Shown: one piece after another, positions 8,025-40,016 of the stretch
How the letters are laid out: each line of letters starts with the position of its first letter
How positions within the stretch are numbered: the first letter of the stretch is position 1
Assembly: GCF_021869535.1 (NCBI RefSeq)
Contig: NW_026262734.1
Coordinates: forward strand, 40,152,487-40,192,502
Direction: 5' to 3'
Length of the DNA stretch: 40,016 nucleotides
Source of the DNA: Mytilus californianus
Lineage: Eukaryota
Translations under genes and position numbers: made by a program
Notes under the pieces: model-generated
Database searches by the model: none
Told to the model about the DNA's origin: nothing
What the model saw: the letters and a program-made list of their open reading frames with translations, nothing else

Positions 8025-8056
8025 GTAAGTTGCTGTTTCATAGATATTTTCGCTGC

Positions 8057-12790: not shown

Positions 12791-12847
12791 CTATTTATCA
12801 ATCTATACTTTATTTTGAAATATATTAGTCTGTTACTTCAATTTCAG

Positions 12848-19530: not shown

Positions 19531-19747
19531 AAAATATCCCTGTGATATTTTTCACCTCTTTTTGTCATCAGTCATGCAATACTAGTTGTTTAATCATTGT
19601 ACTCCTATTGCCAAATCTCTTAAAAAAATACGATTGATACATCTCAAATCCATTAAAATGGTTTTGATTTATTATTCCCCCATGCAACTAAGTTGCGTAG
19701 GGTTTAATGTTTTTGACCCGTCCATCTGTCCGTCCGTCAGTCCTGTT

Positions 19748-20050
19748 TTTTGTCATCGCAACTCTTCTGACACCACATACAGAATTTCATGAAACTTTGA
19801 AGATAATAATGACATACTTTGTAGATGTCAATATCACCAGAAAATCAGGGATTTAATGTTTTTCTTGGAGTTTATGCCCCTTCAAACTTAGAATTTTGGC
19901 CATAATTTACTGCTGCAACAGTTTATCATCGCAACTCCTCAGAAACCACACAACAGAATTTCATGAACAATGTAGTTAATAAGGATATATTTTATAGATG
20001 TGCATATCGACAGAAAATTATGATTCAATGGTTTTTATTGCTTTTGAAAA
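19748..20050 (+). repeat. Local tandem duplication, two units of about 150 bp
   Basis: tcatcgcaactcttctgacaccacatacagaatttcatgaa...cagaaaatcagggatttaatgtttttcttg versus tcatcgcaactcctcagaaaccacacaacagaatttcatgaa...cagaaaattatgattcaatggtttttattg. Confidence 0.6.
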
Positions 20051-20449
20051 AAATGAACACATGAACTTGGAATTTTAAGCCCAGTAACAATGAAGGGCTT
20101 GGGCTATAGAGCGTGCTCATAAAGGTTCTTCAATTTTGGTGTGTATGTGCTCTGGTATGTCTGTTGAAAGCATACTTGTGAAAGTATTGCAAGGCGTGAG
20201 TGCAAGACATATCCCAAAAGGAACATTTGTCAGTCATCTGTATATAGGTCTTTGCTCTGTCTGCAATTGCAGGTGAAAAGTATCTCTTTCGATATTTGGT
20301 GATTTTTAGCGATCACGACCGTTTTGTCAATAAATAAAACTTAGGCTTTTATTGTTTCACTGCTTGTCTCATTGACAATAACCCTTCTACATTATTCATA
20401 ATGATATTTCTGCTGTACCCCAATTTTTGACAATATAATGTAATTCTAT

Positions 20450-20565
20450 GCGACTGTCATACAAGTAAGAGGTTTAGCTAGCTATAAAACCAGGTTTAAT
20501 CCACCATTTTCTACATAAGGAAATGCCTGTACCAACTCAAGAATATGACAGGTGTTTTCCATTCG
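20450..20565 (-). repeat. Interspersed family A core copy, inverted relative to 18985-19130
   Basis: gcgactgtcatacaagtaagaggtttagctagctataaaaccaggtttaatccaccattttctacataagg... Confidence 0.7.
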
Positions 20566-20805
20566 TTAGATGTGTTTGAGCTATAGATTTTGCCATTTAA
20601 TAAAGGACTTTCCGTTTAGAATTTCTCTTCGAGTTCAGTATTTCTGTCATTTTACTTTGTTCTTTCCAGGTCAAAACAGAGATATTAAGATATCTTTGTT
20701 GTTTTTTTTAATATGCTTTGATCCATTTGATTCAACACAATAAAGCAAGAATATAATTCGTCTCTTTGTAAACCAGCTGTTACATAATATGTATAATTGT
20801 TAACT

Positions 20806-20875
20806 TTTTACACATTGTGACTTGGATGGAGTGTTGTCTCATGGGCACTCTTACCACATCTTATTTCTATTGAAT
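20806..20875 (+). repeat. Interspersed family B copy
   Basis: acacattgtgacttggatggagtgttgtctcatgggcactcttaccacatctt is about 85% identical to 28985-29050. Confidence 0.55.
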
Positions 20876-20969
20876 GTCATTGTTGGTGTTTTTTTGGTCT
20901 ATTTCATACTATAATTTCTCAAATATTCAGTGGTACATATATTTAATTTTAATTTTCTTTGTCTTGCAG

Positions 20970-21046
20970 GGCATTTAGATACACGATCAGGTGGATTTGA
21001 GATAGGGATGTGCAACAGACGTGGATATGTTGGATATATTGATGAT
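20970..21046 (+). CDS. Plus-gene exon E5 (phase 1-0): HLDTRSGGFEIGMCNRRGYVGYIDD. It ends at a GC donor (gat|GCAAGT).
   Basis: Acceptor ttctttgtcttgcag|gg. Only the GC-AG intron keeps E6 in the protein-like frame, and the donor matches the GC-AG consensus GCAAGT. Confidence 0.55.
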
Positions 21047-22392
21047 GCAAGTTTTTTTTTCTCAAAACCGTTTAAAGTTTACTTTATTTCTGCTATCTTG
21101 TAAACTTTTGTCATCGTCTTACTTTTCACATTTATAAAACTCGAACCTTTCTTTATGTGAGCATCACATAGAAAATGCATCAAATAGCTAGTTCTTACTA
21201 CAATCAAAACAAGTGGATTCCTGTCTTTCATGACAGTAAATATACTTAGCACATACTTACAACTTATCGTCCAATCAAATTGCTTATATTTGCCTTCTAA
21301 GTTTATCGTACATTCTTTTTTCATTGTACTAAGTAACTATGCATGAATGACCACAAGGGTAAGATTTCATTGTATCGTAATCAAGATATTAAAAACAAAA
21401 TTTGACACTGGCTATTTTAGAATAAAATGCTATGTCCCAAATTAGTTTTCACATTGATTTTTATATATCCTGCTATTAAAACCTTTGATTTTAAAACATA
21501 TTTTTGACAACTGCAAGTTTCTATCATTTAAATAAAGAATAACTAATATGGTCTTTAATACCTTGATTATAGTACCAACCTATCATATAAGTGTGGTAAT
21601 TTATCATCCATGCAATTAGTTTGTACACAAAAAAGTATGTACTATGAAACCTTGTGAAGGGAAATTAAGGCAACTCGATGATCTTGTTAAAACATGATCT
21701 ATTTCATCATGAATTGAAAAACCTTGATAATGTCTGAAGGGAATGTGCCACCTATATCTATATTCTGATAAAGCTTTAGGTTTTTACTTTGAAATGAAAA
21801 GAAAACCAATAATTTTTCAAATTGATCTATTGCTACATATAATTGCTTTTTAATGCCTAACCGCAAAATTTTCTATGGCACACCTATCTATATTTAAAAA
21901 AAATATTATAGCACTGTTTTACTGTGAAATTGATTTTTGTTTTCAAAACATGTAACGCTCCTACTGCAATTTAAATATGTATGCCTGTTTTGGTCAATTA
22001 ATTATTTCATCTCAGCATTTAAATAAGGACATGTAGAAAGACACCGCTATATATAGATATGCAAACTTACACCAGCAGCTACCATCTTTTCATTCTGAAT
22101 ACCCATGATACTAGTGAATGAATTTACAAAACATAAAACTTAGTTAATGAACTTTGTTTTACAAACACCTGTGATACAATAGTCAGCCAAAATAAACTAT
22201 CAACAGACCAATTAAAAGATAACTCGAGTTGTAAATATGTGCTAAATTGGATAGTCTATGAAAAGGTATATACTATGAAATTAAGAGCTCGGGGCAAGCC
22301 CCTCTCTCTAAAAAGTTAAATCACAAAAATACTGAACTCCGAGGAAAATTCAAAGTCCCTAATCAAATGGCAAAATCAAAAGCACAAACATA

Positions 22393-25241: not shown

Positions 25242-25301
25242 TTAAGTGAATAAGTAGTTCATACTGGCTGGAATGTTGTTGCATCCGTTGTAGACTGTCC
25301 A
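25242..25301 (-). CDS. Tentative terminal exon of the minus gene: WTVYNGCNNIPASMNYLFT followed by a stop
   Basis: Strong acceptor ttatttttcag|tgg in the required phase 0. It shows only weak similarity to plus-gene E6 (CVNID versus GCNNI). Confidence 0.25.
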   Translation of the reverse strand, partial: WTVYNGCNNIPASMNYLFT

Positions 25302-26457
25302 CTGAAAAATAAACAGAAGTAATTATTGAACATGTAGTAATGAATTAAACAATTTCTAGATATCTTCCAAAATATCAAAAAATAGGATTGACAAAAATAC
25401 TACTTGAATGACTTAAGACGAAAAAAATGGAGTTTGATACAGTAACATGAAAAGTTTTGTGAGGGTTTTTTTTATAGAGAAAATCGCAAAGATACCCATC
25501 CCAACGTGAAACTTTTGTTCTTCATGATATTAGATTAAAATCAAGGACAAACACGAAAAATACCTCACAAAGAAGTTTTGTCATTTAATTGTGAAATTTA
25601 AATTCCACGGAAATAAACCACTTAAAACGACGGTTGTCATATTTGTACCAGAATCTGCCTACCCTTTTACAGTAGCTAAGATCACCCCGGTTGTTTGGGT
25701 GCGTGTTGCGCATTCCTCAGTTTTCTTAGTAAAGGCTTATGGTCAATAGACTGTTGATTTGACCGATTTGAATGCCCATTATCCCACCGACTGATTTTTG
25801 CAATCAACAACGGGTTTATGTTAGTTTAAGTTGTATAATGAAAGTATATAAACCTTCAAGCTAATGGTAATAGAAAGAACAGCAATTAACTGCCTCAATG
25901 GAAACATTTAAGTAAATTTATAATGAATACCCTATTGTTTACACAAGACGCATTAGTGTTTCAAAATAGTCAAACGGCCAAATCAGGTAAGAGTTGAAAA
26001 GCATTCACGGCCAAACAGTCTTTTGAAAGTTAGGTTGATTTTCTAGGCACTTTATACATATTCTAACGCCTGGTATTTCTTAATCATAAGAAATCCGATG
26101 GACAAGGTTTAATTTGCAGTTGTCACTACACATAGGCAGACATATACATATATTAATTTACAGTGATTGTATGCTTCTAAAAATAGATAAGCATCCTGTA
26201 ATTATACTGAAGAGATGAGTAGATGATCATTTCTGTATACTAGAAGAATACTTCGTGTATTGTATCAGATATCCTTGTTTAATTCCTACGAGAAATTAAC
26301 ACCTCCCGAAACGAAAGCTGATTTTTATCAGCTATAGTTAGAGGAGGGGATAAGGTGTCTGCGCAATGCTAGGTGGTGTTGTCGTAGAAGTTAGAAATAA
26401 TAAGTATAGGTCCAGCCCCGCTCGGGGAGGAAGTAAAGAAACAGATCTACTCTAACA

Positions 26458-26486
26458 TCGTTAGGTTGATTTTCTAGGCACTTTAC

Positions 26487-26517
<31 letters not shown>

Positions 26518-26665
26518 AGTGTAAATTGAAAACAACGTTCAAACCTATGATTGCGTTGGTTAAAAACCGCATTTTTTATACGTGTGCATGTAAAACAAAT
26601 TTCTTGGTAGAGGGGTCTGAATACAGCATAAACAACATTTTCCAAAAGACCAAAAGAGTGAAAAA
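26458..26665 (+). repeat. Duplicated ~200-bp segment (partner at 27040-27195) containing an (AT)13 microsatellite at 26487-26512
   Basis: gtaaattgaaaacaacgttcaaacctatgattgcgttgg...catgtaaaacaaatttcttggtagaggggtct... repeats. gttaggttgattttctaggcacttta also recurs at 26020. Confidence 0.7.
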
Positions 26666-27039
26666 GTATATTTTAACAAAACGCATTTGACTAACAGGTC
26701 GAACAACGGATGTTTCCTGCTGACTACCATTGGCGATTGCCAAATAAATTGATCAGCAGATTTAACAAAATGGATCGTAATATTAATTTAATACCAAATA
26801 GAAAACAATTAACTTGCAGAAAGATGGTATTCCACAAACTTGAGGTGCAAAAATTTGTACACCATATTCGGATTTCGACAATTAATGTCTCTTCAGTGAT
26901 GTTAGGGATCGAAACGGTATTTGGAAGGCCATATAATTTACCTCAATTTAGGATAGACTCTTGAATTTTAAAGAGTCGAAATAGGATGAACGGATCATAT
27001 AAACCATAAGGAAATTTTAATACAAGCCCAAACGAAAAA

Positions 27040-27195
27040 ATATAAACAAGTCTAAATTGAAAACCACGTTCAAACCTATGATTGCGTTGGATAAAAACCG
27101 CAATTTTTATACGTGTGCATGTAAAACAAATTTCTTGGTAGAGGGGTCTAAATACAGCACAAAACATTTTCCAAAAGACCAAAAGAGTGAAAAAT
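27040..27195 (+). repeat. Second copy of the 26458-26665 duplicated segment
   Basis: About 92% identical over 150 bp. Confidence 0.7.
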
Positions 27196-27596
27196 ATATA
27201 CATATATGCATGCCCAACATTAGGAATGAATGGTTTTCCTGGTTTCAGTCACTCGTATTTGTTCTTCGTTTAATCGGTAATTTTTCTGTAAATTTATTGA
27301 TTATAAAACCATTCGAAACACAACCCGTAGAATGTATTGACACAACAAAATGTGGCATAACTTTTAGAAATTGTTTACTTATCAAAGCACTTCAACATCG
27401 TTATTGATTTGACCTACGATTCGAGTACCGCTAGTGAGTATTATTTAGAAACATGCAACGGGGAATAATTTATATACCTGGTATCTTTGATGAGTTTATA
27501 CCATGTTATCTATCAAGAAAGGTTGTTTCTCTTCTGTATATACCAATCCATTATAACATTCACATAATAGATGTATACAAAAATAAATTTACTTAC

Positions 27597-27685
27597 GTCA
27601 TAAATATCGCCTACAAATGGTCCATTTCCATCAAAGGGTTGTCCAACATTTAATGCCCCATTACATGCAAGGAAATCTTTTGGCG
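27597..27685 (-). CDS. Minus-gene LamG exon (phase 1-0): (A)PKDFLACNGALNVGQPFDGNGPFVGDIYD
   Basis: Acceptor ttttctaatag|cg and donor tatgac|gtaagtaaa. It is homologous to plus E5, which carries GGFEIGMCNRRGYVGYIDD. Confidence 0.6.
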
Positions 27686-28533
27686 CTATTAGAAAATTAA
27701 TCATGCATTAGTTAGTGTATTGTTTAGATAAAAATTATTAAAACGTTACCGTAGACGTATCTAAATGCTATATTTAGGTCCAGTTGTCTTTTTTTTACCT
27801 TTTCAATATCACTTGTTTAAAGTCATTCAATTAAATAAGCTTTATTAAATTAAGGCCGTGTATGTTAGTATCACCACAGTTTCGCTTTGCAAATATGTCA
27901 TTAACTTATATAAAAGACAAGAATAAACCACGAGTAAATAAAGTTTGACACGAATGCGATATACAAGCCAATTACAACCCAATACGCACAAAACAAAAAT
28001 AACCTTCCAAAATGCTTGACATTGTTTTGTTATATTTATTATTTTTACATTGAATTGTATACAAGTCTTAATAGTCTATTGGTCTTCGTCGGTCTATTTT
28101 AAAATTGTATTCTGGAATTCATTTTTTTTAATTTTTCAGTTATGTTCTTTGTTGTTTCCTTTTCGGATATATCAGTTCTTCAAAGTTTGTATAAGCTTTC
28201 GGTATAAGCTTTTGGATTTTCAAAATATTTTGGTTTCACGCATCACTGAAGTGACTTAATTATGGAAAAGCTTATATGATGCAGTCATTTGGTAGCATTA
28301 ATCTTATTTGAGTATGACATGTTTATATACAGTTGCTACAATATCCATATAAACTCGTTTATCCAAAGAAGCGCTTCGGACGCATGAAATTATTAAACGT
28401 GTTGTTTTCATTTTTTACACGTCTGAAGCAGCCATCACGTAAGACTAACACTTAAATAATTTGTCTTATTTATAGGAAACATTGTGAAAATTCTTGACTT
28501 AGTTATAAAGGTATAAATGTCATTCAATCTTAC

Positions 28534-28648
28534 CATTATCGAAAGCTACTTGTTGAAGATCGGTTTCTCCTGCACTTAATGCCACTTCAACCACCACTTT
28601 ATTTTTGTTGAAACCAATTGTTATAGTTACAACTTTGTTGTCATAAAG
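28534..28648 (-). CDS. Minus-gene LamG exon (phase 0-1): LYDNKVVTITIGFNKNKVVVEVALSAGETDLQQVAFDN
   Basis: Acceptor tttcatttacag|ct and donor gataatg|gtaagattg. It is homologous to the C-terminal part of plus E3 (HLGAVEIALAPRNKEVIFRADT). Confidence 0.65.
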
Positions 28649-28984
28649 CTGTAAATGAAACACAAGGAACATGTATAAGGTAGTTAAAATGAAATATTTT
28701 GTATAGAATGATAAGTAATTAAGTAATAGTAGTATCAAAAAGGCATTTCATGTTAACTTCAAGTAAAAAGGGACACATGTGAGACTGAACAAATTGTAAA
28801 CTTTACAGACATAATAAATCAAAATAGGTTATTAACATTTTGTATATAAGAAGAGATAAAAAAAGACTAAAAAATAATTTTTCACAACGCATTCCTGTTA
28901 AGTCATTTTGGGGCCCTTTATAGCTTGCTGTTCGGTGTGAGCCAAGGCTCCGTGTTGAAGGCCGTACTTTGTCCTATAATTGAT

Positions 28985-29050
28985 AACTTTTAACACATTG
29001 TGACTTGGATGGTGTGTTGTCTCATTGGCCCTCATACCACATCTTCTTAT
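28985..29050 (+). repeat. Interspersed family B copy
   Basis: acacattgtgacttggatggtgtgttgtctcattggccctcataccacatcttcttatttt. Confidence 0.55.
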
Positions 29051-30151
29051 TTTGCAACTGCACATTAAAATCAAATAAAACATTGTGTCATAGAAATAAG
29101 ATTAAAAGAAATGTAATGTACATGTAAACGTCACTGAAATGGCAAACAAATATTATCCAGAGACAATATACTATTTTTCAGGAAAACAAAATAGAATAGA
29201 TTAACCAGTAAAAATCACTTTGGTGAAATTTTAACTATAAATATGAATCAAAATAACCGTAAACAGAATTTGTAACGAACGAAATACTAAGCTTTACCAG
29301 CATATATAATAATTTGAAGGTTTTTCAAATAGTACGTTTTGATTTTCAAAGCTTTTGATGATTGCATAACTAACAAGGTATGCAAGATAGCCCTATCCAT
29401 TAAAAAAAATAAAATAAGCAAATATTTCTTAAGGAATACTTCGAACATAGTATGATATATAAACGTTTAAAAAGTTATAGATTTTGTGTAGTTTGATCTA
29501 TCTGAGAGGAAGGTGATAGAATTAAGCTGTTACATGACTGATTTAGAACACAGATCGTGCAATGAGAAAACACTAAATTAATACCAAATCAAATCCAAAT
29601 ATCAAGATTCACATTTAAATGAATCTTGCAAGATTTAATTCACATATCACTCTACCGGACGCCATTATTGGTCATTCTATCTGGTTTCTTCTATTCATAG
29701 AAAATGAAGAAAAAAATGCCACAATCCAGAAAATTATATCAGGATTGGCATAAGCTCAAAACTAGAATTGTAGAGAGGTGAATTATATCCTGCTTTGCAA
29801 GGACCACCCTTGATGTGACAAATGTAACATTTATGTAAACGGGTTTTAAAAGACGATGACAGTATTTAACTCAATTCACCTTCTGTCTTTTTACTAACAC
29901 ATTTCTAATCCCTGTTTTCCATCTACACAAAAAGCAATATTTTATTGTTGATGACAATATTGATAACCGTTCCATTAAAAAAACATGCTAAAATATTCAT
30001 ATTGACAACAACTTTTATCAACATTGTTAGTGTTGATTATTGTTTCCAAATTTCATCTTAATTCGCTATTTATAACATTAACATAAACAATAATATTTAT
30101 AAGTTTTGTTCTAATTCTTAGTAACTATTTGAAAGATAAAATCATACTTAC

Positions 30152-30510
30152 ATCATACTTATCATTGCTGACTGTTATTTCCCTGAAATCACTTATCATC
30201 ACTTTTGTTATCAGTTTATTGTTGGTGTTATATCTTTCTGCGTACATTTCAATAGATGATCTTGGGTTTCCTGAACAACTTTTCAATAAAGAAATGCGCC
30301 CAAAACCTGCTGTTCCTGTAGGATCCATTCGCAGTTTTAGTTTGGCAATAAAAGTTGGCAATATATTGTTGTTTAGTTGTGGATTTGCAATAAATGAGAG
30401 TCCACCGAAGAAACCTTTACCGTTCTCCAATATGACATTGTCTTGTCCTTGAAGTTGTGTGTTGTTGCTTAATATTTTTGAGAAGTCTAGATGAATGCTT
30501 GGAGGACATT
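30152..30510 (-). CDS. Minus-gene exon (phase 1-0), the start of the LamG-like domain: CPPSIHLDFSKILSNNTQLQGQDNVILENGKGFFGGLSFIANPQLNNNILPTFIAKLKLRMDPTGTAGFGRISLLKSCSGNPRSSIEMYAERYNTNNKLITKVMISDFREITVSNDKYD
   Basis: Acceptor tttttaag|aa and donor tatgat|gtaagtatg. The 119-codon frame is open and aligns with the N-terminal part of plus E3 (CRPEINLDYDSK...DNGG...). Confidence 0.65.
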
Positions 30511-31199
30511 CTTAAAAATAAATACAGATTATGTAAGAATTGACAAAATTTTAATCCTGGTATCTATGATGGGTTTATTTGAAGACATTGTATCATTCGA
30601 AAAGTTTTAAGAAATATTATATAAAATGAAGGAACGCTACATACCATTTTTTTCTTATTTCGTTTTTTCAAAATTTAAATCACTGAAATGTGACAATATT
30701 CTAATAACAAATTAATAGATATAGTTAACGTCGAATAAGAAAAAAAGATCTCTGCAAAGTTCTGACTTTATCATGCGGTTCACACCTACACCATTGAATT
30801 TAAATGGTATAACTATTGCGAATGACACGATCATTGTATTATGGGTATTTCGAAAAAAAAAATATGAAATAAACCCTTTAAGCACAACAAGTTGAACTGT
30901 GATCTATGACTAACACATTTTACCCCGCTGTAAGTATTCGATAAACAGAAAAACGACGGAATGCATCACACAGTATAAAATTGAGAATGGAAATGGGGAA
31001 ATATGTCAAAGAGACAACAACCCGGCCAAAGAGCAGATAACAGCCGAAGGCCACCAATGGGCCTTCAACGCAGCGAGAAAATCACGCACCTGGAGGTGGT
31101 CCTCAGCTGGCCCCTAAATAAAAATGTGTACTAGTTCAGTGAAAATGGACATCATACTGAACTCCAAAACATATAAATGATCTAAAATTAAAAAAAAAC

Positions 31200-31300
31200 A
31201 TACAAGACTAACAAAGGACAGATGCTCCTGACTTGGGACAGGCGCAAAAATGCGGAGGGGTTAAACATGTTTTGTGAGATCTCAACACTCCCCCTATACA
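31200..31300 (+). repeat. Degenerate family A-like fragment (gctcctgacttgggacaggcgcaaaaatgcggaggggttaaacatg)
   Basis: Motif-level resemblance to the family A head and core. Confidence 0.3.
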
Positions 31301-31620
31301 TCTAGCCAATGTAGAATAAAGAAACACACAGCGATACATACAGTAAAATTCAGTTCAAAAGAAGTCCGAGTCCGATGTCAGAATAGGTAACAAAAGAAAC
31401 AAAGCAAAATGACAATGATACATACATTAACAAAGGACTACTAGCAGTTACCGACATGCCAGCTCCAGACCTCAATTAAACTGATTGAAAGATAATGTCT
31501 TCATCATATGAAAATCAAGTACAATCCCTCTCGCTAGGGGTTTAGTATCATACCATCATAAATTATATGAGAAGAACATAACCCGTATCATGCCAACAAC
31601 TGGTTTTAGAATAAATATGT

Positions 31621-32329
31621 TTATTTCCGATGCAAAGACCCTATGAGTGAATCATCATTAATACCAAAATATGCAATTCTTAATGACTTGACAACAGTAT
31701 CGTAACTATATCCCTTCCGAATAAGTCTGTTTAAAGGTTTGGTTAGCTTTTGAGGTGAATACCGACAATTTTGTGCTTTGTAAAGAATATTACCATAAAA
31801 GATTGGATGTGAAATACCTGAACGTATAAGACGTCTGCATGTTAATTTATATTTAGGAATGATGTCCTTGTACCGATGATAAAATTTAGTAAATGTTTTG
31901 ACTAGTTTGTGATATCGAAAACCCTGGTGTAATAATTTTTCAGTAATACAGAGATTTCTTTCGTTAAAAATCAAATATGTTGTTACATACACAAGCATAT
32001 CGAACAAGTTGCGATATATAAACACCATAAGATGGTGACAAGGGAACGTCACCATCTAAAAAAGGATAATTAACAATAGGAAATGAAAAATCATCTCTTT
32101 TGTCATACATTTTGGTATTAAGCTTCCCATTAAAGATATAGATATCAAGATCCAGGAAAGAGCAGTGTTCATTGTTAGTATTAGCTTTATTTAAGGTCAG
32201 TTCGGCAGGATAAATCTCTTTAGCATGCTGACATGAAAGTTGATTCAAAATTTCAGAAATCCTTGATTTGTGGTTTTTAAATGTGCGACGAAATTTATCT
32301 TGACTATTCACAATAAAACGTGATACCAA
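31621..32329 (-). mobile_element. Frameshifted remnant of a TE-type ORF. It lies in the minus-gene intron between the 32474-32650 and 30152-30510 exons, in the sense orientation.
   Basis: Two overlapping frames encode ...CSFLDLDIYIFNGKLNTKMYDKRDDFSFPIVNYPFLDGDVPLSPSYGVYISQLVRYA... and ...NERNLCITEKLLHQGFRYHKLVKTFTKFYHRYKDIIPKYK...IFYGNILYKAQN... I recognise this conserved block as a multi-copy ORF family from marine-invertebrate genomes. It has no splice-consistent link to flanking exons. The exact superfamily was not assigned. Confidence 0.45.
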
Positions 32330-32473
32330 CTTTCAGGGAGCTCTCATTTTTAACCATAATATATCATAACACTGAAAGATGAAAGAAAAATAAAATAACG
32401 GAGCTAGGTTTCAAAGTTTGCTAATAAGTGTTATATTGTAATTGCGTAGCCTTTGCCATAGGGTGATATTTAC

Positions 32474-32650
32474 CTCCATTACTTGTTGGTTGAACTGTGG
32501 ATGTGACAGTAGGAGCTGTTGGGAACGCTCCCCAACCACAGTTGCATATCTCCGGTTTGAATATTTGGCCCATTGGACATATTTGTTCTTTTCCGTCCTC
32601 CATATATGTATTAATCGCAATAGTCTTAAATTTGCGACATCTTACTAGTT
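32474..32650 (-). CDS. Minus-gene exon (phase 1-1), a cysteine module: LVRCRKFKTIAINTYMEDGKEQICPMGQIFKPEICNCGWGAFPTAPTVTSTVQPTSNG
   Basis: Acceptor tcttatattccag|aa and donor aatggag|gtaaatat. It is homologous to plus E2. Confidence 0.65.
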
Positions 32651-32958
32651 CTGGAATATAAGATTACCATGTTAAAAATATCTAAAATTGATTAGAATAA
32701 ATGTCATTAAATTCAAAATTTGTCGATTTATCACGCTGCAATAAGATACGATAGATTTCTTAAAAACTTTCCGAAAAAGAGTTGAACTTTGACATTCGTA
32801 GTACGAATTTATGCATTGTTGTGAAATGCAGCATTTTTAAAAGTTGTTCAAAGTAATCCGATTTATGATGACGATAATTTAATACAAAAAGATGTATGCT
32901 TATTGTCTCGTAGTATATTTTTGGTTTATACCACATTTACATATATATGTGTTCTTAC

Positions 32959-33198
32959 TTGGTGTAGTCCTACTTGTGTCGACGATACTACATTCATTAG
33001 ATGTATCTAGGATACAGTGATCATGATTAGTAGTTCCACTAATGGCCGTGTCATACTTCATCTTGTGTTCACACTGACATGCTTGTCTAGTGTGAATCAT
33101 CATTCCATCTGTAGTGTGTAGGCACTTATAATACAAATTACAACTGTTTGGTACTGGATACGTTGTACCATTTGTCCATTTGTTTATGACACAAGGAT
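32959..33198 (-). CDS. Minus-gene exon (phase 1-1), the second peritrophin-A-like chitin-binding module: PCVINKWTNGTTYPVPNSCNLYYKCLHTTDGMMIHTRQACQCEHKMKYDTAISGTTNHDHCILDTSNECSIVDTSRTTP
   Basis: Acceptor ctttgtactccag|at and donor ccaa|gtaagaac. The first Cys is supplied by the preceding exon (ICKQ-D-PC). Confidence 0.6.
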
Positions 33199-33505
33199 CT
33201 GGAGTACAAAGCGTGAAGTGGCATTTAGAAAATATATATTTTGGTTTTATTCACACATACCATATTTTTCAATTAAAACTTATTCAGTGATTGGAAATAA
33301 ACAATGATACATACAAGGGATACTGGTTAAGCAGTTCATACATAGAACAAGTGTCAGGCAGCATAGTGCATGCCTGGTCACGCTTAGTAGGAGAGAAATG
33401 ATTTGGTTAAATACTCAGTTCAACATGTTCGATACATAATTTTGTCTATTTTCCTAAGAGAGAACTAATAATGACTGATCTTTGTAATTGAGGCGTATTT
33501 CCTAC

Positions 33506-33727
33506 CTTGTTTGCAAATGAATTCGTCAAGATGATCACATTTGGATGTTTCTGGATTGAAAAAGTAATGTAGCCCACATTCTCGAATACTGTACTGCACG
33601 AACTGGGTAGCACCAGCATTTCTGATACAGTCCAAATAAAACTTGCAATCTGTTGGGTGTGGAATGTAGCACCGCAAAGCATTTGGGTCGCATCTGGTAA
33701 TGCATTCAGTAGCAAATTCAGGTGTAG
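33506..33727 (-). CDS. Minus-gene exon (phase 1-1), a chitin-binding type-2 (peritrophin-A, CBM14) domain: TPEFATECITRCDPNALRCYIPHPTDCKFYLDCIRNAGATQFVQYSIRECGLHYFFNPETSKCDHLDEFICKQ
   Basis: Acceptor tttatactaacag|ct and donor aacaag|gtaggaaa. The classic six-Cys spacing is present, with aromatic residues Y, F and GLHYF. Confidence 0.75.
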
Positions 33728-34962
33728 CTGTTAGTATAAAATATTTTATCATATTCATTAAGTTTCAATATCACTTCTCCTCATATCTAACCTATCTAAT
33801 GAATCGTTACCGACAAAAAATGTACGATATTTAAGCACAATATAATCTAACTATTTTTCAAATGTGTGGCATTTATAAAGTACACGATACTATGTTTGCC
33901 TGTATTGTTCATGACTTCTGTATCATTTCAAAGTTCATAGGGATAGGCACATGCATTTGTGGTGGGCTTAAAAAACTTTGTTTATATCAATATTCGTCAC
34001 CTTTAAATCTCGCTCCGTGGACTAATAAAAGATAAATGAAAGAAAGAACTTGCAATAAGCATAAGCACAGGGAAAGCTAATAACTCTAAAATAACGATGT
34101 CAGACATGATATAAACACCAATTACAAACACCACAAAAATTAAACAAAAAATGACATCCTTTCAAGAGAAAGCTCAAAGCACATTTTCTTCTAATCTGCA
34201 TTCATGCAATTCTTCAGTTTTGGATCACTGGATGTAATTCATATGACATTTCATACCGCAACAAAATAAACTTTACAGAAGACATGATATCATGCAATGA
34301 TCATAATTCCTGCAATTGGAATCTTATTTTCACTATGAAAATGTATATTAATGATTATTTTCCTCATTGAAAAAAGTATTTAGAAGTGAAAACGGTTGTT
34401 GGATCATTTATTCATATTTTTACACAGACGTGAAATCTGTAGTCGGAACGCAACTTAAATAAATCCGTATCTGAATGAATAAGGAATATAAAGCTGTTAC
34501 AATTTTAACGGATTCCTCTTGTTGAAATATCTGCAAATAAACGTGGAATAAACCAGCGAAAGAAGAAGTGTTGGTCACTGAGTTTATTGCAAATGCCCAA
34601 TGATACTCCTAAGTAAGAGGAATTACTCTTACTAATTTCCGTTTTAAAAACGAACAACGCCTGATATATTGACACAACAGATGTTTAACGGTCAGCTGCA
34701 CGAATGTATAAGATTTGAATATCGGTAACTTACTGTCATCTTAATTTAAGACTTATTTAAAAAACCTAACTACACAGTTCTGTTCTCTCTGATCTCTTCA
34801 AGGTAAAAAAAGTATTCGAAATGTTTTATACATACTGTAACATCAAGTATTTGCCAAAAACTCTTTATGTTACTTCCTCTATAAAAACTAAATAAATAAA
34901 TCTCAGTCTTAGTAACAGATCATAAGTGTGCGTTGATAAGACAACAAATGAATGGTACTTAC

Positions 34963-35007
34963 TGGTAGGAACGGTTGTTGTGGTAGAAGTTGTTGTCGTC
35001 GTGGCAA
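34963..35007 (-). CDS. Minus-gene 45-bp mini-exon (phase 1-1), a Thr-rich linker: ATTTTTSTTTTVPT
   Basis: Acceptor aatttcag|tt and donor ctacca|gtaagtacc. The phase links the VWA exon to the ChtBD2 exon. Confidence 0.55.
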
Positions 35008-35849
35008 CTGAAATTATAATTAATATTATAAAATATGAAAATTTCTCAATGATTTAGAATTTTTTGAATATTGTAAAAGGCAAGATTGTAATGAGTTAAA
35101 AGGAAAACTTGTAATGTGTTAAAGGATAACTGGTAATAGGTTAAAGGAAAAATTGTAATGTGTTTATGGAAAAAGTGATTTCCTTTATCGTTTGTTTTAA
35201 AAATAATGAATGGTAGAACATAAATGGTGTGACTGTTTGATCCTGTTAAATTTATAAAGTACAGTTACCTAATAGAAATGCACGTGTTTGAGCTTTTGAT
35301 TTTGCCATTTGATGAGGGACTGTCTGATTTGGTTTTCCATGGAGTTCGGTATTTTTGTTATTTTATTTTTTCGACACACTACAGACGTATTGAAACAATG
35401 ATTTCAGATTGTGTTCTATTTGGTTACTAAATAAGAGAAAAATTAACCGACGACAGAAGGATCATAGTTAGTCAGTAATAAACAGTAAACCAATATAATT
35501 TCAACGATCGAAATCGAAATTAAAATCATTGTACTAATATCCAAACGAACATGAGGTTGTAACATATCATCTGCCATGACTAAACTTTCAATTATTTTCC
35601 AGATGAGCTCCAAAAGTGCTACAGTCGCCTTCTGCATATACTAGAGTCATGTCATAGACCAAACATACTTACTGTATTCGTTTTATCATTAATATTGGCC
35701 TTTGTTAGTGCCTGATATTGACACTTGTCATTGGATGTGATTTGAAAATCGTGTGTCTAAATGCTGATACACCAGTATCTATTTAGAAATGTAATCCTTA
35801 TAAAGGTAATCTACCATATAATTTAGTTGGTCTTTTAAATTTTTTGGAT

Positions 35850-35935
35850 ACTATCGTCACTGCTGAGAGTTTTGTAGACGAAAAGCTCGTCTGGCGTACA
35901 CAATTTAATCCTTGTATCTATTATGAGTTTATATT
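35850..35935 (+). repeat. Family C short interspersed unit
   Basis: tatcgtcactgctgagagttttgtagacgaaaagctcgtctggcgtacacaatttaatccttgtatctattatgagttta. Confidence 0.55.
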
Positions 35936-36101
35936 CATACATGAGATATACTTATATAAAAGAATTTTTTGTAGATGTACAAAGAAAAAATACAAAGAAA
36001 AAAATAATTCTTTTTTCATCCTCACGTTACTTTATTTTTCATGCGCGCTAAAGATTTGAATGAATATGTATCTAATTTATCTGATAATTGTATGTACTTA
36101 C

Positions 36102-36679
36102 GATTGCAAATCAAACTATTCAATATTGGCAGAGCAGTCAGCATTTCTTCGAAATCTTTTACAACGATAACATTGGTAATAACATTATGCGCTATTCTAT
36201 ATAATTCGTCTATCATTGTCTGTCGTTCGTTAATCGAATATTTGGGACTGACAATTCCAACAACGAAAATAGTAATGCCTTGGGCAAATGCTAAATCAGC
36301 CTCATCTTTCGTTAGAGCTGGATATGCCGATTTACCATCCGTGATAATAATACCGAATTGTGGATTGGTAATTATTTGTGGAGCCCTCTTCAATCTAAGT
36401 CTAATTTCTTTAATAGCCAAATGTGTATTGGTACCTATTTTAAGCATAGTTGCTGCTTGCAATTTTGCTTTTATAATCATTTTGTCAAAGGTATCATCAA
36501 CTATATCCTTTATGGTTGTGCTGAAGGTAAACACAGATCTAATTCGAATATTAGCTTGTCCTATGCGCATGTTGTCCACTAATATATTGACAAAATCCTT
36601 GGAGTCTTGAAAATCTGGTTTTGTTAGACTGTCTGAGGAATCTAGTGCAATTGCAATATCGGCAGGACCAAGGCATTCT
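36102..36679 (-). CDS. Minus-gene exon (phase 1-1), a complete VWA domain with MIDAS motif DxSxS: (E)CLGPADIAIALDSSDSLTKPDFQDSKDFVNILVDNMRIGQANIRIRSVFTFST...GIIITDGKSAYPALTKDEADLAFAQGITIFVVGIV...VVKDFEEMLTALPILNSLICN
   Basis: Acceptor ccatttcgtatttcag|aa and donor aatc|gtaagtac. The frame is open. VWA hallmarks are DSSDS, ITDG and IFVVGI. The plus-strand ORF 36041-36610 is the antisense artefact of this exon. Confidence 0.8.
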
Positions 36680-37851
36680 GAAATACGAAATGGGTCATCA
36701 TATTGCAGTTACAAATACCAAATATTAACTTAGAATATGTATTCTAAGAACAGAAAAAAAAAACCAATTAAAATTAACGTCAGTTGGGCATTTATAAAGA
36801 CCTCAATTTAAAGTTGCCAACAGTTAGTGAACAGCTTCTACCCCTGTAGTTAAAACATACATTCAACAATGAAGTTTTCAAAAACCGTATTGTCAGGACA
36901 ATTACATATTTCTTATGAACTTGAATGGTCTATCATCAGAAATACGCTTAGAACGGAAACAAAAACTAGGACTAATCACTTCGACATACATTTTACCTAT
37001 TTAATGGTTGTCAAGGTAAGAATATTTATCCGTTTTATGAACTGGAAAAAGTCATTGCTGAGTCAACGATACACAATTGTATGTGTTTTTGAACACTTAC
37101 CGACCAATTTTTTCTCTTTTTAAAATTTAATGTCCTTGCATAATTCGGTTAAATTATTTATAAGTTAAGCAGGTTAAAAGGTTGAATATTTTTAACTTGA
37201 GTTTTTGGACCCTTCCTACGATATTGTGTTCAAAATATTAGCCTTTTATGTTGTATTCAAAATTTAAGTGTAAAACTTCATTTGTACCAATGATCTACAC
37301 AATATATAACTATGAAGAAAAAATGAAAATGTATGCTTAACAAAACAACACTTAAACAGGTTTTTTTTTACGAGAATCGACTTAATTATATTTGTAAGGG
37401 GACCATTCACATGTTGGTTGATATTTCACATATCATTTCAGAATCAAATCGTTATAGATACTACGTGTTTATAACTCTTCGCCTGAATTTATTCCTTAAT
37501 ATGTCCTATTTCTGATTTAAAAGTTTCTAAAGGACATGAGATAGAATTGACAGTCCAGGTAAACGTTAAGAAAGACTACCAGTATTTGTAACACTGACTA
37601 AAAAGTTAATTATAGTATCAAAGTTAAAGGATTATTTCAAAAACTGTTGGTATTGGATTAAAACAAGAAAAGAACGAAGCTTTTATAAATTAGAAATGGT
37701 ACATTCAACTCAACTCCTGTGACATATTTCTACTACTACAGAGAACAATATCAAAATAGGTTTTTAATAGCAACATTGAGTTCACGTGTACAGGATTACA
37801 CCGTGGATGTATTTATGACGTTATGATCACGTGTCCAGTGTTGACATACCT

Positions 37852-38011
37852 GTTAGATTTGTTGTATAGTCGGGCCTGGTTACTGTCACTATGGTGGTGG
37901 TAGTTGTTGTTGCTGGGGTTGTGGTTGTTGTAGTTGTTGTGGTTGTGGTGGTTGTCGCTAAGGAAGTTGTTGCAGCAACAGTTGTTGTTAAAACTGGAAC
38001 CAGTGGTATTA
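37852..38011 (-). CDS. Minus-gene exon (phase 1-1), a Thr-rich mucin-like linker: IPLVPVLTTTVAATTSLATTTTTTTTTTTPATTTTTTIVTVTRPDYTTNLT
   Basis: Acceptor aatttgcag|ta and donor ctaacag|gtatgtc. The frame is open. Confidence 0.6.
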
Positions 38012-38291
38012 CTGCAAATTAAATCCAAAATATTACTGCTAATTGAACTGCACATTTTTTACGCAAGTTATAATTGCAGTTAATCTTATGCAAATAACAT
38101 GTTTCTAGCAGAAGTATAATAGATATAGCATGTTGATGAGGCTCAAGACTTCCCCTAGGATAGTTAGCTCTAAGAAAAGAAAATTTTTAAACTTAAATCT
38201 TCGAAATGAAAATCACATATGATTTACAATACCATAACGTCACATTTTGCTAACAAAATTGACGTTAGTTATGTTTACGTTAATAACTTAC

Positions 38292-38861
38292 ATGAATTTA
38301 GCATGTTAATTAGCCACACCTTGCCATCTGTGTTTAAGCTTGCTATATTGTTAACTGTAAACGTATTTGCTGAAAAACCGTTTGCCATGTTTACCAAGTC
38401 TTGTTGTGTAAGAGCCGATCCTGCCTGTGAAACCCTCATAGGTAATATATATATCCCATTTGCATATGCCTGGTACGCAAGTTGAGATGTGATGTATTTT
38501 GAATATCCTTCATCATCAACTAGGAGAACGCCAGCTTTTACCATATTTGATTGTTGATTTTGAGTAAGTGAATCAATAATATACTGTAAAGAAGCTGATG
38601 TCCTTGGGTAAGTGGTTCGAATGTCACTTTGTGTCTGGAATGCATTCTGCAGGCTGGCATAGTCACTGTGTAAGCCAAAATTTATCAACGGAGCATATGT
38701 CTGCTGGTCGAATTCGAACACTCCAATTTTCATTCTACCTTTACATTCTGGTTCTGACGATCCAATGAAAGCTCCTATAATTTTACGAACTTCCTTCATT
38801 GCACTTGGTTCCAGATCTCCCATTTGTCCCATGGAGACATCAACATTACAACCGTAATTTC
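38292..38861 (-). CDS. Minus-gene exon (phase 1-1), a VWA-like domain with a degenerate MIDAS: NYGCNVDVSMGQMGDLEPSAMKEVRKIIGAFIG...RMKIGVFEFDQQTYAPLINFG...KAGVLLVDDEGYSKY...ANGIYILPMRV...TFTVNNIASLNTDGKVWLINMLNS
   Basis: Acceptor tttatctatag|ga and donor aattcat|gtaagtta. The 190-codon frame is open and retains the VWA beta-strand pattern. Confidence 0.7.
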
Positions 38862-39214
38862 CTATAGATAAATTGAAACATCTATATATATAGAAACCGA
38901 TAATGATATAATGTAATAAATACGGGTTGACTAACATTGAGAGAATTAAAAAACTTTCTGTAAGTTACAAGAGTATCTTGCAAACATAAATTAATGAAAA
39001 GCATTTCCGATATTTGTTTTTACCATATTGAGGCGACAGTAGTATACCGATGGTGAAATGTCATAAATCGATTATGAAGGGACAAATGAAGGCAACATGA
39101 ACTCCAAGAGGAGAGAGATCGGTTGTGTCGACAGGGTTAGTGCCTCCTGTTATGCATGGGTCATCAGTCATGAAAATTACACTAGGTCAAAATGTAATAA
39201 TCCAGTAACACAAG

Positions 39215-39300
39215 TTTATCGTCACCGTTGAGTCTTTTGTAGACAAATCACGCGTCTGGCGTACACGATGTTAATCCGGGTATCTTTGATGAGTTCATTA
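39215..39300 (+). repeat. Family C short interspersed unit
   Basis: tatcgtcaccgttgagtcttttgtagacaaatcacgcgtctggcgtacacgatgttaatccgggtatctttgatgagttcatta. Confidence 0.55.
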
Positions 39301-39663
39301 TCGAATTGATGGTACAGCATAGTATCTTAATTGTATTGAGTATAAAAACCGTCAGTTTTGCAGGATATGCTATGAAAGTATGAAGATACAAAGTATTCAA
39401 TAAAACTTTTAGTTTTACTCTTTACTTGGAATGAGAAAATACTTGGATATGTTATCGGTTTTAAAAGGTTTTTCATTTTGAAGGAATTATCTTTATATAA
39501 ATGCTTTGTAAGGTATTTAGACTTATTACATACATTGGATAATGTATGTAGTTTCTTTTAATTTTCACTTTTAAGAATGAAACTAATCGTTTATTATTTT
39601 CATTAAGATTTCGAAAATTCAGATTTGTATACATAAACAAATTCCCTGTAATAAGGTACTTAC

Positions 39664-40016
39664 CAACTTTCATTATCACGTTTGCAAGATATTTGCTCAA
39701 TTCAATTGGGTTTTTTGTTCCGTTATTTCTGATATAGTTTCTGGAGAGCCACATAGTATTATTCGCGTTACCACCAGCCATGAGAACTGCATCTTGATAA
39801 TCAACCGAATTTTCATAATCAATTCCGTCCACATTGTATGGAATAACTGTTATACCATTTTCCCTCATCATCTGTGCAATCTTCAACACCCTATCTTTAT
39901 TGCCTAGTCCCCCGGAATAGAATACTACTGCGTATTGTGGTCTGCCAGCTACCTTCTGCCGAGACAATGTAAAGTACATATTCATCATGGACTGCGCTAG
40001 AGGTTCATTTTCCAAA
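39664..40016 (-). CDS. Minus-gene exon, the 3' part of a further VWA domain; the exon continues beyond the window end: ...LAQSMMNMYFTLSRQKVAGRPQYAVVFYSGGLGNKDRVLKIAQMMRENGITVIPYNVDGIDYENSVDYQDAVLMAGGNANNTMWLSRNYIRNNGTKNPIELSKYLANVIMKVG
   Basis: The frame is open to the window edge. Donor aaagttg|gtaagtacc. The VWA C-terminal pattern is present (VVFYSGG corresponding to ITDG, and GITVIPYNVDG). Confidence 0.65.

What the first reader, a model, noticed from the sequence alone, without database searches (positions are those of the whole stretch)
25242..40016. Pif/BMSP-type shell-matrix-protein gene on the minus strand (VWA x3+, Thr-rich linkers, ChtBD2 x2, Cys module, LamG-like)
Twelve minus-strand exons join with fully consistent intron phases. 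Their products are:
- three VWA domains (one with an intact DSSDS MIDAS and ITDG);
- two Thr-rich mucin-like linkers;
- two six-Cys peritrophin-A chitin-binding modules;
- a CP.G…C.C module;
- a LamG/concanavalin-like C-terminus split over 3-4 exons.

From memory of the family, VWA + chitin-binding + laminin-G is the domain order of molluscan Pif and of the blue-mussel BMSP, which has multiple VWA domains. Those proteins act in the nacre and shell matrix. The 5' end, with signal peptide and further VWA repeats, lies beyond 40016.
Basis: partly seen in the sequence, partly recalled or inferred. Interest (0 to 1): 0.7.

Follow-up and report, generated by a model that had tools for sequence, protein, structure and literature searches.

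The report
Mussel VWA–chitin-binding–laminin-G matrix gene
The region holds the last 12 exons of a real mussel gene for a large secreted matrix protein built like the shell proteins Pif and BMSP, but it is an uncharacterised relative of them, and nothing here shows that it works in the shell.

Summary
Window 25242-40016 (minus strand) carries 12 exons with 11 GT-AG introns, nine of them in phase 1, and a TAA stop at 25244-25242.

The 988-aa product reads: partial VWA, VWA, Thr-rich linker, VWA with DSSDS MIDAS, Thr-rich linker, CBM_14, CB-like module, 4-Cys module, four-exon ConA/LamG-like domain. It aligns in one piece (81% identity) with residues 1213-2189 of "uncharacterized" RefSeq proteins of M. 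galloprovincialis, M. edulis and M. trossulus (about 2190 aa). Those have a hydrophobic N-terminus and nine tandem VWA domains.

dN/dS against M. galloprovincialis is 0.32, so the gene is under constraint.

The Pif/BMSP-type architecture is supported, but this is neither Pif nor BMSP:
- nine VWA domains rather than BMSP's four;
- an uninterrupted LG domain with no low-complexity mineral-binding insert;
- none of MgaBMSP's published low-complexity strings;
- no significant direct match to the published Pif/BMSP LG consensus, only a link through Lottia Lgi_236718.

A shell role is inferred, not shown.

Best reading: a secreted chitin-anchored cross-linker. It is a new member of a known kind and of modest interest.

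The parts
39664..40016 (-). Exon 1 of the window (5' end cut by the window edge). It encodes the C-terminal part of the seventh VWA domain of the full protein. The donor is TTG|GTAAGT, phase 1.
   Evidence: VWA match: Pfam 0.028 and custom VWA HMM 1.8e-10. Aligns from residue 1213 of P0042.
38292..38861 (-). Exon 2: one whole VWA domain (the eighth of the full protein) with a degenerate MIDAS (DVSMG).
   Evidence: Pfam VWA E 6.1e-8. Splice sites. The junction reads ...IMKVGNYGCNVDVS, as in the orthologues.
37850..38011 (-). Exon 3: Thr-rich linker (54% Thr) between VWA domains.
   Evidence: TRF finds a 24-nt repeat at 37893-37955. An equivalent poly-Thr stretch is present in the orthologues.
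36102..36677 (-). Exon 4: one whole VWA domain (the ninth) with a complete MIDAS (DSSDS ... T ... ITDG).
   Evidence: Pfam VWA E 4e-19 and VWA_2 6.7e-6..
34963..35007 (-). Exon 5: 15-residue Thr-rich linker (67% Thr) between the last VWA domain and the chitin-binding module.
   Evidence: 90% nucleotide identity to L001 4711-4800.
33506..33727 (-). Exon 6: peritrophin-A type chitin-binding module (CBM_14), 8 Cys.
   Evidence: Pfam CBM_14 E 2.2e-5, 24.9 bits against a cut-off of 22.1 when scanned alone; 20.8 bits within the full product. Homologues P0015, P0018 and P0020 score 52-67 bits on the aligned region.
32959..33198 (-). Exon 7: CB-like module, 7 Cys, with CBM_14-like Cys spacing.
   Evidence: Pfam CBM_14 E 0.21 only. 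That value equals 'CBM_14L1' by the criterion of PMC11291548. 83% identical to the orthologue.
32474..32650 (-). Exon 8: 4-Cys module (C...CPxG...CxC) followed by a short Thr/Pro-rich tail.
   Evidence: The pattern CxxGxxxxxxxCxC is conserved in the alignment of homologues. No Pfam hit.
30152..30510 (-). Exon 9: N-terminal half of the ConA/LamG-like domain.
   Evidence: Aligned with domains that hit Laminin_G_3. Fold evidence.
28534..28648 (-). Exon 10: middle strands of the LG domain.
27597..27685 (-). Exon 11: LG domain (...NVGQPFDGNGPFVGDIYD).
   Evidence: (97% identical to the orthologue).
25242..25301 (-). Exon 12: the last LG strand and C-terminus (WTVYNGCNNIPASMNYLFT), with the TAA stop at 25244-25242.
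   Evidence: tblastn with P0002..

Best explanation
This is the 3' 15 kb of an intact, constrained mussel (Mytilus-type) gene. It encodes a secreted modular extracellular-matrix protein of about 2200 aa with the Pif/BMSP-type architecture.

Full protein, as seen in the orthologues: hydrophobic N-terminus, nine tandem VWA domains, a chitin-binding CBM_14 module, a CB-like module, a small 4-Cys module, and an uninterrupted ConA/laminin-G-like domain. The VWA domains seen as exons (three in the window, the first in orthologue fragments) each occupy one exon; the window's are bounded by phase-1 introns. Short Thr-rich, presumably O-glycosylated, spacers flank the last VWA domain.

Proposed mechanism (inferred from the domain families):
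- The CB modules anchor the protein to chitin fibres.
- The long VWA array, of which at least two domains keep a full metal-binding MIDAS, acts as a multivalent docking platform for other matrix proteins. The Pif97 VWA domain has been shown to do this.
- The C-terminal lectin-fold LG domain adds a further carbohydrate or protein contact.

The protein lacks the acidic or G/S-rich low-complexity insert that gives Pif80 and BMSP100 their CaCO3 binding. It therefore most likely works as an organic-framework cross-linker, not as a crystal binder. The shell-forming matrix is the most probable site of action, but that step is not shown.
For: Shown here:
- 12 exons with 11 GT-AG introns and a continuous ORF.
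- Colinear 81% match to the 2190-2199 aa orthologues of three Mytilus species.
- dN/dS 0.32.
- VWA and CBM_14 HMM hits, and nine VWA domains in the orthologue.
- Single-exon ORF fragments show the first and ninth VWA domains each on one exon.
- The same CB, CB-like, Cys, LG cassette occurs in proteins recovered from Mytilus shell: the M. californianus 'Shell matrix protein' P86860 and a 'BMSP-like' EST. These are 26-29% identical to this product, E 4e-5 and 2e-8.
- The closest Lottia homologue, Lgi_236718, has a protein id between those of two listed Pif/BMSP family members, 236717 and 236719. It matches the published Pif/BMSP LG consensus strongly, z 23.5 and 17.8.

From the literature:
- VWA + CB + LG defines the Pif/BMSP family.
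- The Pif97 VWA domain pulls down Pif80, nacrein and protease inhibitors.
- Pif97 binds chitin (PMC11291548).
Against: - No expression or proteome evidence for this gene. The Logan/ENA cluster members are genomic single-exon ORFs, not transcripts. The M. galloprovincialis shell-proteome supplements did not contain four test strings, and their VWA ESTs are other proteins by reading.
- The window's LG domain does not match the Pif/BMSP LG consensus directly (z below 0) and has no Pfam hit of its own.
- The CBM_14 score is borderline in the full-length context.
- The best VWA relatives found were non-shell cephalopod matrilin-like proteins, though that search depends on a word index.
- The signal peptide is seen only by eye in the orthologues and lies outside the window.
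Confidence: 0.72

Rival explanations
1. The protein is a chitin-associated extracellular matrix or mucus protein that acts outside the shell, for example in gut lining, periostracum, byssus-associated matrix or haemocyte-derived clotting or immune matrix. In that case it shares domain types with Pif/BMSP but not their role.
For: - It has no mineral-binding low-complexity or acidic region.
- It has mucin-like Thr linkers.
- The best VWA hits are matrilin-like 'cartilage matrix proteins'.
- CB-domain hits include insect 'chondroitin proteoglycan 2-like' and 'hemocytin-like' proteins.
- It was not found among the M. galloprovincialis shell-proteome sequences I checked.
- Shimizu et al. note that several Pif/BMSP subfamilies (PifG, most of PifX) were never detected in shells.
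Against: - According to PMC11291548, proteins combining VWA and CB domains are restricted to molluscs and other lophotrochozoans, and many of them are shell matrix proteins.
- The homologous Cys-LG cassette of M. californianus P86860 was recovered from nacre, myostracum and prism layers.
Confidence: 0.22
2. It is the orthologue of BMSP itself, or of Pif, in this species.
For: - The domain order is the same.
- The total length is similar (about 2190 aa against 2111 aa).
- MgaBMSP also has a poly-Thr stretch between VWA domains.
Against: - MgaBMSP has four VWA domains and CB modules at residues 854-1015. Here the CB module starts at about residue 1794 of the orthologue, after nine VWA domains.
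- None of MgaBMSP's six published low-complexity strings occurs in the window product or in the M. galloprovincialis orthologues.
- An exhaustive phmmer search with the C-terminal 427 aa returned only 21 proteins at E ≤ 0.001; the named ones include no BMSP, and the unnamed ones are short fragments or a bacterial-type protein.
- The LG domain is uninterrupted.
Confidence: 0.02
3. It is a decaying pseudogene, or a chance chain of ORFs.
For: - The gene sits in repeat-rich, AT-rich DNA with TE-like ORF remnants in its introns.
- The CBM_14 and LG signals are weak.
Against: - 988 codons stay open across 12 exons, with all splice sites canonical.
- dN/dS is 0.32.
- Intact orthologues exist in three other species.
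- Sequence conservation against L001 is centred on the exons.
Confidence: 0.03

Closest known systems
BMSP, blue mussel shell protein (M. galloprovincialis BAK86420; Suzuki et al. 2011, as described in PMC11291548)
   Same: - Same genus-level lineage.
- Tandem VWA domains followed by CB, CB-like and LG modules.
- A poly-Thr stretch between VWA domains.
- CBM_14 scores as weak as here: i-E 1.9e-5 and 0.0079 for BMSP, against 2.2e-5 and 0.21 here.
   Different: - BMSP has four VWA domains, not nine.
- Its LG domain is split by a long G/S-rich low-complexity insert, the CaCO3-binding BMSP100 part, which is absent here.
- BMSP is cleaved into 120- and 100-kDa parts.
- No sequence strings are shared, and the named hits of the exhaustive search with the C-terminal half include no BMSP.
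Pif (Pinctada fucata Pif97/Pif80)
   Same: - The order VWA, CB, CB-like, LG.
- The Pif97 part (VWA + CB) is the functional analogue proposed here: chitin anchoring plus protein docking.
   Different: - Pif has one VWA domain.
- It is cleaved at RMKR.
- Its LG domain is interrupted by a D/K/R-rich aragonite-binding region.
- At the comparable position, just after the CB-like module, the window product has RCRK. The M. galloprovincialis orthologue has RCKR there.
PifN subfamily (PfuPifN, McoPifN_1582, ApePifN, VliPifN; PMC11291548)
   Same: - Poly-Thr between the VWA and CB modules.
- PfuPifN has a complete, uninterrupted LG domain, as here.
   Different: - The PifN poly-Thr inserts are long; here the insert is 15 residues.
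- The McoPifN low-complexity strings are not present.
- The number of VWA domains differs: nine here.
- Clade membership was not tested.
M. californianus 'Shell matrix protein' (P86860) and the 'BMSP-like protein' EST gi|212814599 (Gao et al. 2015, PMC4517812)
   Same: - Together they cover the same cassette, CB + CB-like (the EST) and Cys module + Laminin_G_3 (P86860).
- Both were recovered from mussel shell layers.
- Both match this product: E 4e-5 at 26.5% identity and E 2e-8 at 29% identity.
   Different: - They are much closer to Argopecten P0018 (41% identity) than to this gene.
- No VWA domains are known for them.
- They are paralogues, not orthologues.
Uncharacterized proteins XP_076107298.1 (M. 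galloprovincialis LOC143075666), XP_071180019.1 (M. edulis), XP_063396196.1 (M. trossulus LOC134680858) and VDI55088.1
   Same: They are orthologues. They are colinear with the window product at 81% identity, with identical exon junctions.
   Different: They come from other species (dS 0.34 to M. galloprovincialis) and carry no functional annotation.

Membership tests
Pif/BMSP family (VWA-CB-LG proteins; Shimizu et al. 2024, PMC11291548) | One or more VWA domains N-terminal to the chitin-binding region | tested here: met
   Pfam VWA E 4e-19 (exon 4) and 6e-8 (exon 2), plus a partial third domain. The orthologue has nine.
Pif/BMSP family (VWA-CB-LG proteins; Shimizu et al. 2024, PMC11291548) | A CBM_14 chitin-binding module downstream of the VWA domains, usually followed by CB-like modules | tested here: met
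   Exon 6 scores 24.9 bits (cut-off 22.1) when scanned alone and 20.8 bits in the full product. Exon 7 gives E 0.21, which is CBM_14L1 by the paper's own criterion. These values are comparable with MgaBMSP's.
Pif/BMSP family (VWA-CB-LG proteins; Shimizu et al. 2024, PMC11291548) | A laminin-G (ConA-like) domain, complete or split, downstream of the CB modules | tested here: met
Pif/BMSP family (VWA-CB-LG proteins; Shimizu et al. 2024, PMC11291548) | Similarity to the conserved Pif/BMSP LG N- and C-terminal sequences (Suzuki 2013, quoted in PMC11291548 Methods) | tested here: not met
   Smith-Waterman scores of the window LG domain against both consensus peptides are no better than shuffles (z -1.3 and -0.9). 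The link is only transitive. Lgi_236718 (P0015) matches the consensus at z 23.5 and 17.8, and matches the window LG domain at E 4.8e-8 in a small local database.
Pif/BMSP family (VWA-CB-LG proteins; Shimizu et al. 2024, PMC11291548) | VWA domains fall inside the Pif/BMSP clade of the VWA phylogeny (the paper's operational definition) | not testable with these tools
   No reference Pif/BMSP VWA sequences could be obtained; the supplements give identifiers only. The best hits of a word-indexed search were cephalopod matrilin-like proteins at 27-29% identity.
Pif/BMSP family (VWA-CB-LG proteins; Shimizu et al. 2024, PMC11291548) | Secreted (signal peptide) | tested here: inconclusive
   The N-terminus lies outside the window. 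The orthologues begin MIMRWLVTLAVCIATLSTLGYCQ, which is hydrophobic and signal-like by eye. No predictor was run.
Pif/BMSP family (VWA-CB-LG proteins; Shimizu et al. 2024, PMC11291548) | Found in the shell matrix or expressed in mantle epithelium | not testable with these tools
   No transcript or peptide data are available. Four test strings were absent from the M. galloprovincialis shell-proteome supplements, and the VWA ESTs there are other proteins by reading. The Logan/ENA fragments are genomic.
BMSP subfamily (bivalves) | Four tandem VWA domains at the N-terminus | tested here: not met
   There are nine VWA domains in the orthologue P0042. The window alone holds the seventh (in part), eighth and ninth.
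BMSP subfamily (bivalves) | An LG domain split by a long low-complexity CaCO3-binding insert (BMSP100), with the precursor cleaved | tested here: not met
   The LG domain is contiguous over exons 9-12, 207 aa. No MgaBMSP low-complexity string is present. The LG domain has pI 5.15 with 9.7% D+E. The window product has no RxKR between the CB and LG modules; it reads RCRK.
PifN subfamily | A poly-Thr-containing insert between VWA and CB, and a complete LG domain (PfuPifN) | tested here: inconclusive
   Both features are present in form: a 15-residue Thr-rich exon 5 and an uninterrupted LG domain. But the insert is short, the McoPifN strings are absent, and clade membership could not be tested.
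Matrilin / collagen VI-type VWA proteins | VWA domains combined with EGF, coiled-coil or collagen triple-helix modules | tested here: not met
   Pfam finds only VWA-type families and CBM_14, apart from a weak sub-threshold Calmodulin_bind match, in the window product and in P0042.

The most novel reading that the evidence does not exclude
The gene represents a Pif/BMSP-type lineage that has not yet been classified. It would be a 'giant' form with nine single-exon VWA domains and an ancestral-type uninterrupted LG domain, and with no mineral-binding insert. Such a protein would be a pure organic-framework cross-linker. It sits tail-to-tail with a second gene that carries Cys-module and LG exons, which hints at a local cluster of such genes in mussels.
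Probability: 0.4. Interest if true: 0.4.

Novelty: new member of a known kind. Interest (0 to 1): 0.3.

Why it matters
Pif/BMSP-type proteins are central to current models of how molluscs build nacre on a chitin scaffold. A Mytilus paralogue with nine VWA domains and an intact laminin-G domain, but no crystal-binding insert, would extend the known range of the family, where the bivalve BMSPs have four VWA domains. It would also separate the scaffold-linking half of Pif/BMSP function from the mineral-binding half. Finally, it gives a name and a testable role to proteins that are labelled 'uncharacterized' in three annotated mussel genomes. It is not a new kind of system.

Tried and rejected
1. 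The first homology search used the whole draft product and was swamped by the poly-Thr linkers; it returned only a manatee collagen VI. That search was wasted.
2. The search with the VWA part alone found only cephalopod matrilin-like proteins. The word index missed the Mytilus orthologues, which surfaced only through the members of P0002's cluster.
4. AF2 on a single sequence failed, with pLDDT 30. The 12-sequence alignment gave a usable model.
5. The afdb50 fold library was unavailable.
6. I looked for VWA exons upstream of the M. galloprovincialis fragment locus L001 and found none. The expected position falls in an N gap at 2703-4451, which also explains the truncated 427-aa annotation.
7. 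I looked for transcript evidence among the Logan/ENA cluster members. They are genomic single-exon ORFs that read into introns.
8. I looked for this protein in the M. galloprovincialis shell-proteome supplements and did not find it.
9. I looked for reference Pif/BMSP sequences in paper supplements and found only identifiers.
10. A profile of the LG alignment against PDB sequences gave only weak hits (0.03-1) to LamG-type domains. I treat these as suggestive only.
11. Rfam gave no hits.
12. Readings considered and rejected: BMSP orthologue, pseudogene, matrilin or collagen VI.

Full report
**1. What is in the sequence**

The window is AT-rich (about 31% GC) and looks like eukaryotic DNA. Stop-free segments on the minus strand between 25.2 and 40.0 kb carry recognisable protein modules.

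I listed all AG and GT sites around each segment and obtained one phase-consistent chain of 12 exons:
- 40015(cut)-39664
- 38861-38292
- 38011-37850
- 36677-36102
- 35007-34963
- 33727-33506
- 33198-32959
- 32650-32474
- 30510-30152
- 28648-28534
- 27685-27597
- 25301-25242

Every intron is GT...AG, and the phases are 1,1,1,1,1,1,1,1,0,1,0. I first read the last exon in the wrong frame. A tblastn with the orthologue fragment P0002 placed it correctly. The product is 988 aa and its 5' end is cut by the window edge.

**2. Is it real?**

Yes, on four grounds.
- A search with the C-terminal 400 aa found one cluster, represented by a 427-aa M. galloprovincialis 'hypothetical protein' (P0002, 81% identity, 100% coverage). 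The members of that cluster include full-length proteins of 2190-2199 aa from M. galloprovincialis (XP_076107298.1, VDI55088.1), M. edulis (XP_071180019.1) and M. trossulus (XP_063396196.1). All are labelled 'uncharacterized'.
- My spliced product aligns to residues 1213-2189 of P0042 in a single HSP of 990 columns with 81.2% identity and 16 gaps. Every exon junction reads as in those models.
- In the M. galloprovincialis locus L001, the intron positions of exons 6-12 are the same. Nucleotide conservation is centred on the exons, and the downstream neighbour is syntenic.
- Over 415 aligned codons, dS is 0.34, dN is 0.11 and dN/dS is 0.32. The gene is under purifying selection, and the window comes from a mussel outside the M. 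edulis species complex.

The 427-aa annotation is a truncation artefact. The Thr-linker exon lies at L001 4711-4800, right next to an N gap at 2703-4451 where the last VWA exon should be.

**3. Domains**

*VWA domains*
- Exon 4 is a full VWA domain (E 4e-19) with DSSDS, a Thr, and ITDG, which together make a complete MIDAS.
- Exon 2 is a VWA domain (6e-8) with a degenerate MIDAS, DVSMG.
- Exon 1 is the C-terminal part of a VWA domain: Pfam gives 0.028, and an HMM built from VWA domains gives 1.8e-10.

*Linkers and Cys-rich modules*
- Exons 3 and 5 are 54% and 67% Thr.
- Exon 6 is a CBM_14 module. It scores 24.9 bits against a cut-off of 22.1 when scanned alone, and 20.8 bits in the full product.
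- Exon 7 is CB-like only (E 0.21, 7 Cys).
- Exon 8 carries a 4-Cys CPxG...CxC module that is conserved in all homologues.

*LG domain*

Exons 9-12 (207 aa) have no Pfam hit of their own. The case for an LG domain rests on three results.
- They align along their whole length with the C-terminal domains of Argopecten, Lottia, Potamilus and M. californianus proteins. Three of the seven aligned sequences hit Laminin_G_3, with a best E of 2.4e-8.
- An AF2 model of P0002 built with a 12-sequence alignment has mean pLDDT 66.6, and 72-88 over residues 221-290, the N-terminal part of the LG domain; pLDDT is lower further on.

*Full-length architecture*

The full-length orthologue has nine tandem VWA domains and a hydrophobic N-terminus. 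Only two of its VWA domains keep DxSxS. Single-exon ORF fragments from genomic contigs show the first and ninth VWA domains each on one exon. This fits growth by exon duplication with phase-1 boundaries.

**4. Relation to Pif/BMSP**

The review-type analysis of Shimizu et al. 2024 (PMC11291548) defines the Pif/BMSP family as shell-related VWA proteins, usually with CBM_14 or CB-like modules and an LG domain that is often split. It divides the family into eight subfamilies. The architecture found here fits that description.

It is nevertheless not BMSP.
- MgaBMSP (2111 aa) has four VWA domains, CB modules at 854-1015, and G/S-rich low-complexity regions inside the LG domain.
- None of those low-complexity strings, nor those of McoPifN, occurs in the window product or in its orthologues.
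- The exhaustive phmmer search with P0002 returned only 21 proteins; the named ones include no BMSP, and the unnamed ones are short fragments or a bacterial-type protein.

The paper quotes the conserved Pif/BMSP LG N- and C-terminal sequences. The window's LG domain does not match them better than shuffled sequence. Its Lottia homologue Lgi_236718 does match them (z 23.5 and 17.8), and so does M. californianus LOC127710824 (z 11.3 and 7.2). The family link is therefore transitive.

Lgi_236718 has a protein id between those of Lgi_236717 and Lgi_236719, both of which are listed Pif/BMSP members.

The shell-proteome paper of Gao et al. 2015 (PMC4517812) gives the sequences of the M. californianus 'Shell matrix protein' P86860 (Cys module + Laminin_G_3) and of a 'BMSP-like' CB EST. 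Both are homologous to the window product (26.5% identity at E 4e-5, and 29% at E 2e-8). Both are much closer to Argopecten P0018, at 41% identity. The CB, CB-like, Cys, LG cassette is therefore found in real shell proteins, but this gene is a distant paralogue of them.

Membership of the VWA clade, which is the family's operational definition, could not be tested because no reference sequences were obtainable.

**5. Mechanism**

What is shown: this is an intact, constrained gene for a modular protein with a VWA array, Thr linkers, CB modules and an LG fold. Secretion is suggested only by the orthologues' hydrophobic N-terminus.

What is inferred from the domain families and from the Pif97 experiments (chitin binding; VWA pull-down of Pif80, nacrein and protease inhibitors):
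- The CB modules tether the protein to chitin.
- The nine VWA domains provide multivalent, partly metal-dependent docking for other matrix proteins.
- The LG lectin fold adds a further contact.

The protein has no low-complexity or strongly acidic segment; the LG domain has pI 5.15 with 9.7% D+E. There is also no RxKR between the CB and LG modules in the window product. It reads RCRK, whereas the M. galloprovincialis orthologue reads RCKR at that spot. I therefore expect a framework cross-linker, not a crystal binder that is processed into two halves.

The site of action, shell matrix or another chitinous or mucous matrix, is not shown.

**6. Verdict**

The gene is a new, uncharacterised member of a known kind. 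Orthologous gene models already exist in public annotation. Interest is modest.

Noticed in passing
window 7054-21110, + strand (pieces at 7054-7317, 9848-10117, 12829-13206, 15508-15756, 21026-21110): A second gene lies on the opposite strand, tail-to-tail with the one studied.
- It has two CPxG...CxC-type Cys modules and LG-domain exons.
- Its LG N-terminal exon is 31% identical to M. californianus LOC127710824 (E 7e-13).
- Unlike the studied gene, it matches the published Pif/BMSP LG N-terminal consensus (z 5.0).
- No VWA exon was found on the + strand of the window (tblastn, E < 1e-3).
- The exon ending at about 21110 appears to be followed by GCAAGT, a possible GC-AG intron.
- The region downstream of it, facing the studied gene, aligns with L001 next to a neighbouring gene called there.
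   Followed up: partly
window 11870-12229 and 13652-14024: Two direct repeats of about 360 nt, 97-99% identical and about 1.79 kb apart, flank the LG exon of the + strand gene (12829-13206). They could be a recent local duplication or paired element ends around an exon.
   Followed up: no
window 10788-11399: A 61-bp satellite of 10 copies with 94% matches lies in an intron of the + strand gene.
   Followed up: no
window 646-1324: A 192-bp tandem repeat of 3.6 copies with 87% matches ends next to a + strand poly-Thr coding stretch at about 1312-1380. That stretch could be a linker exon of the neighbouring gene.
   Followed up: no
window 31624-32332, minus strand (intron 8 of the studied gene): Two adjoining ORFs of 122 and 144 aa look like the remnant of a mobile-element protein (...DDFSFPIVNYPFLDGDVP...). 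They have no significant Pfam hit.
   Followed up: partly
window 26509-26632 and 27040-27163 (intron 11): A direct repeat, 94% identical with 531-bp spacing, forms part of a duplicated element of about 350-500 bp that carries similar short ORFs.
   Followed up: no
L001 2703-4451 (M. galloprovincialis UYJE01001268.1): An assembly gap sits where the last VWA exon should be. This explains why VDI00741.1 (P0002) is annotated as a 427-aa protein that starts with an intron-derived Met (MTVITFFIK...).
   Followed up: yes
window product residues about 725-732 (exon 8, 32650-32627); P0042 residue 1931: Just after the CB-like module, where Pif is cleaved at RMKR, the M. galloprovincialis orthologue has a furin/Kex2-type RCKR. 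The window product has RCRK. The Cys in the motif is a conserved Cys of the module, so cleavage is doubtful.
   Followed up: partly
window product residues 456-459 (exon 4, VWA domain): The only RxKR motif in the window product is RLKR, inside the last VWA domain. The M. galloprovincialis orthologue reads RLQR there, so it is probably not a processing site.
   Followed up: no
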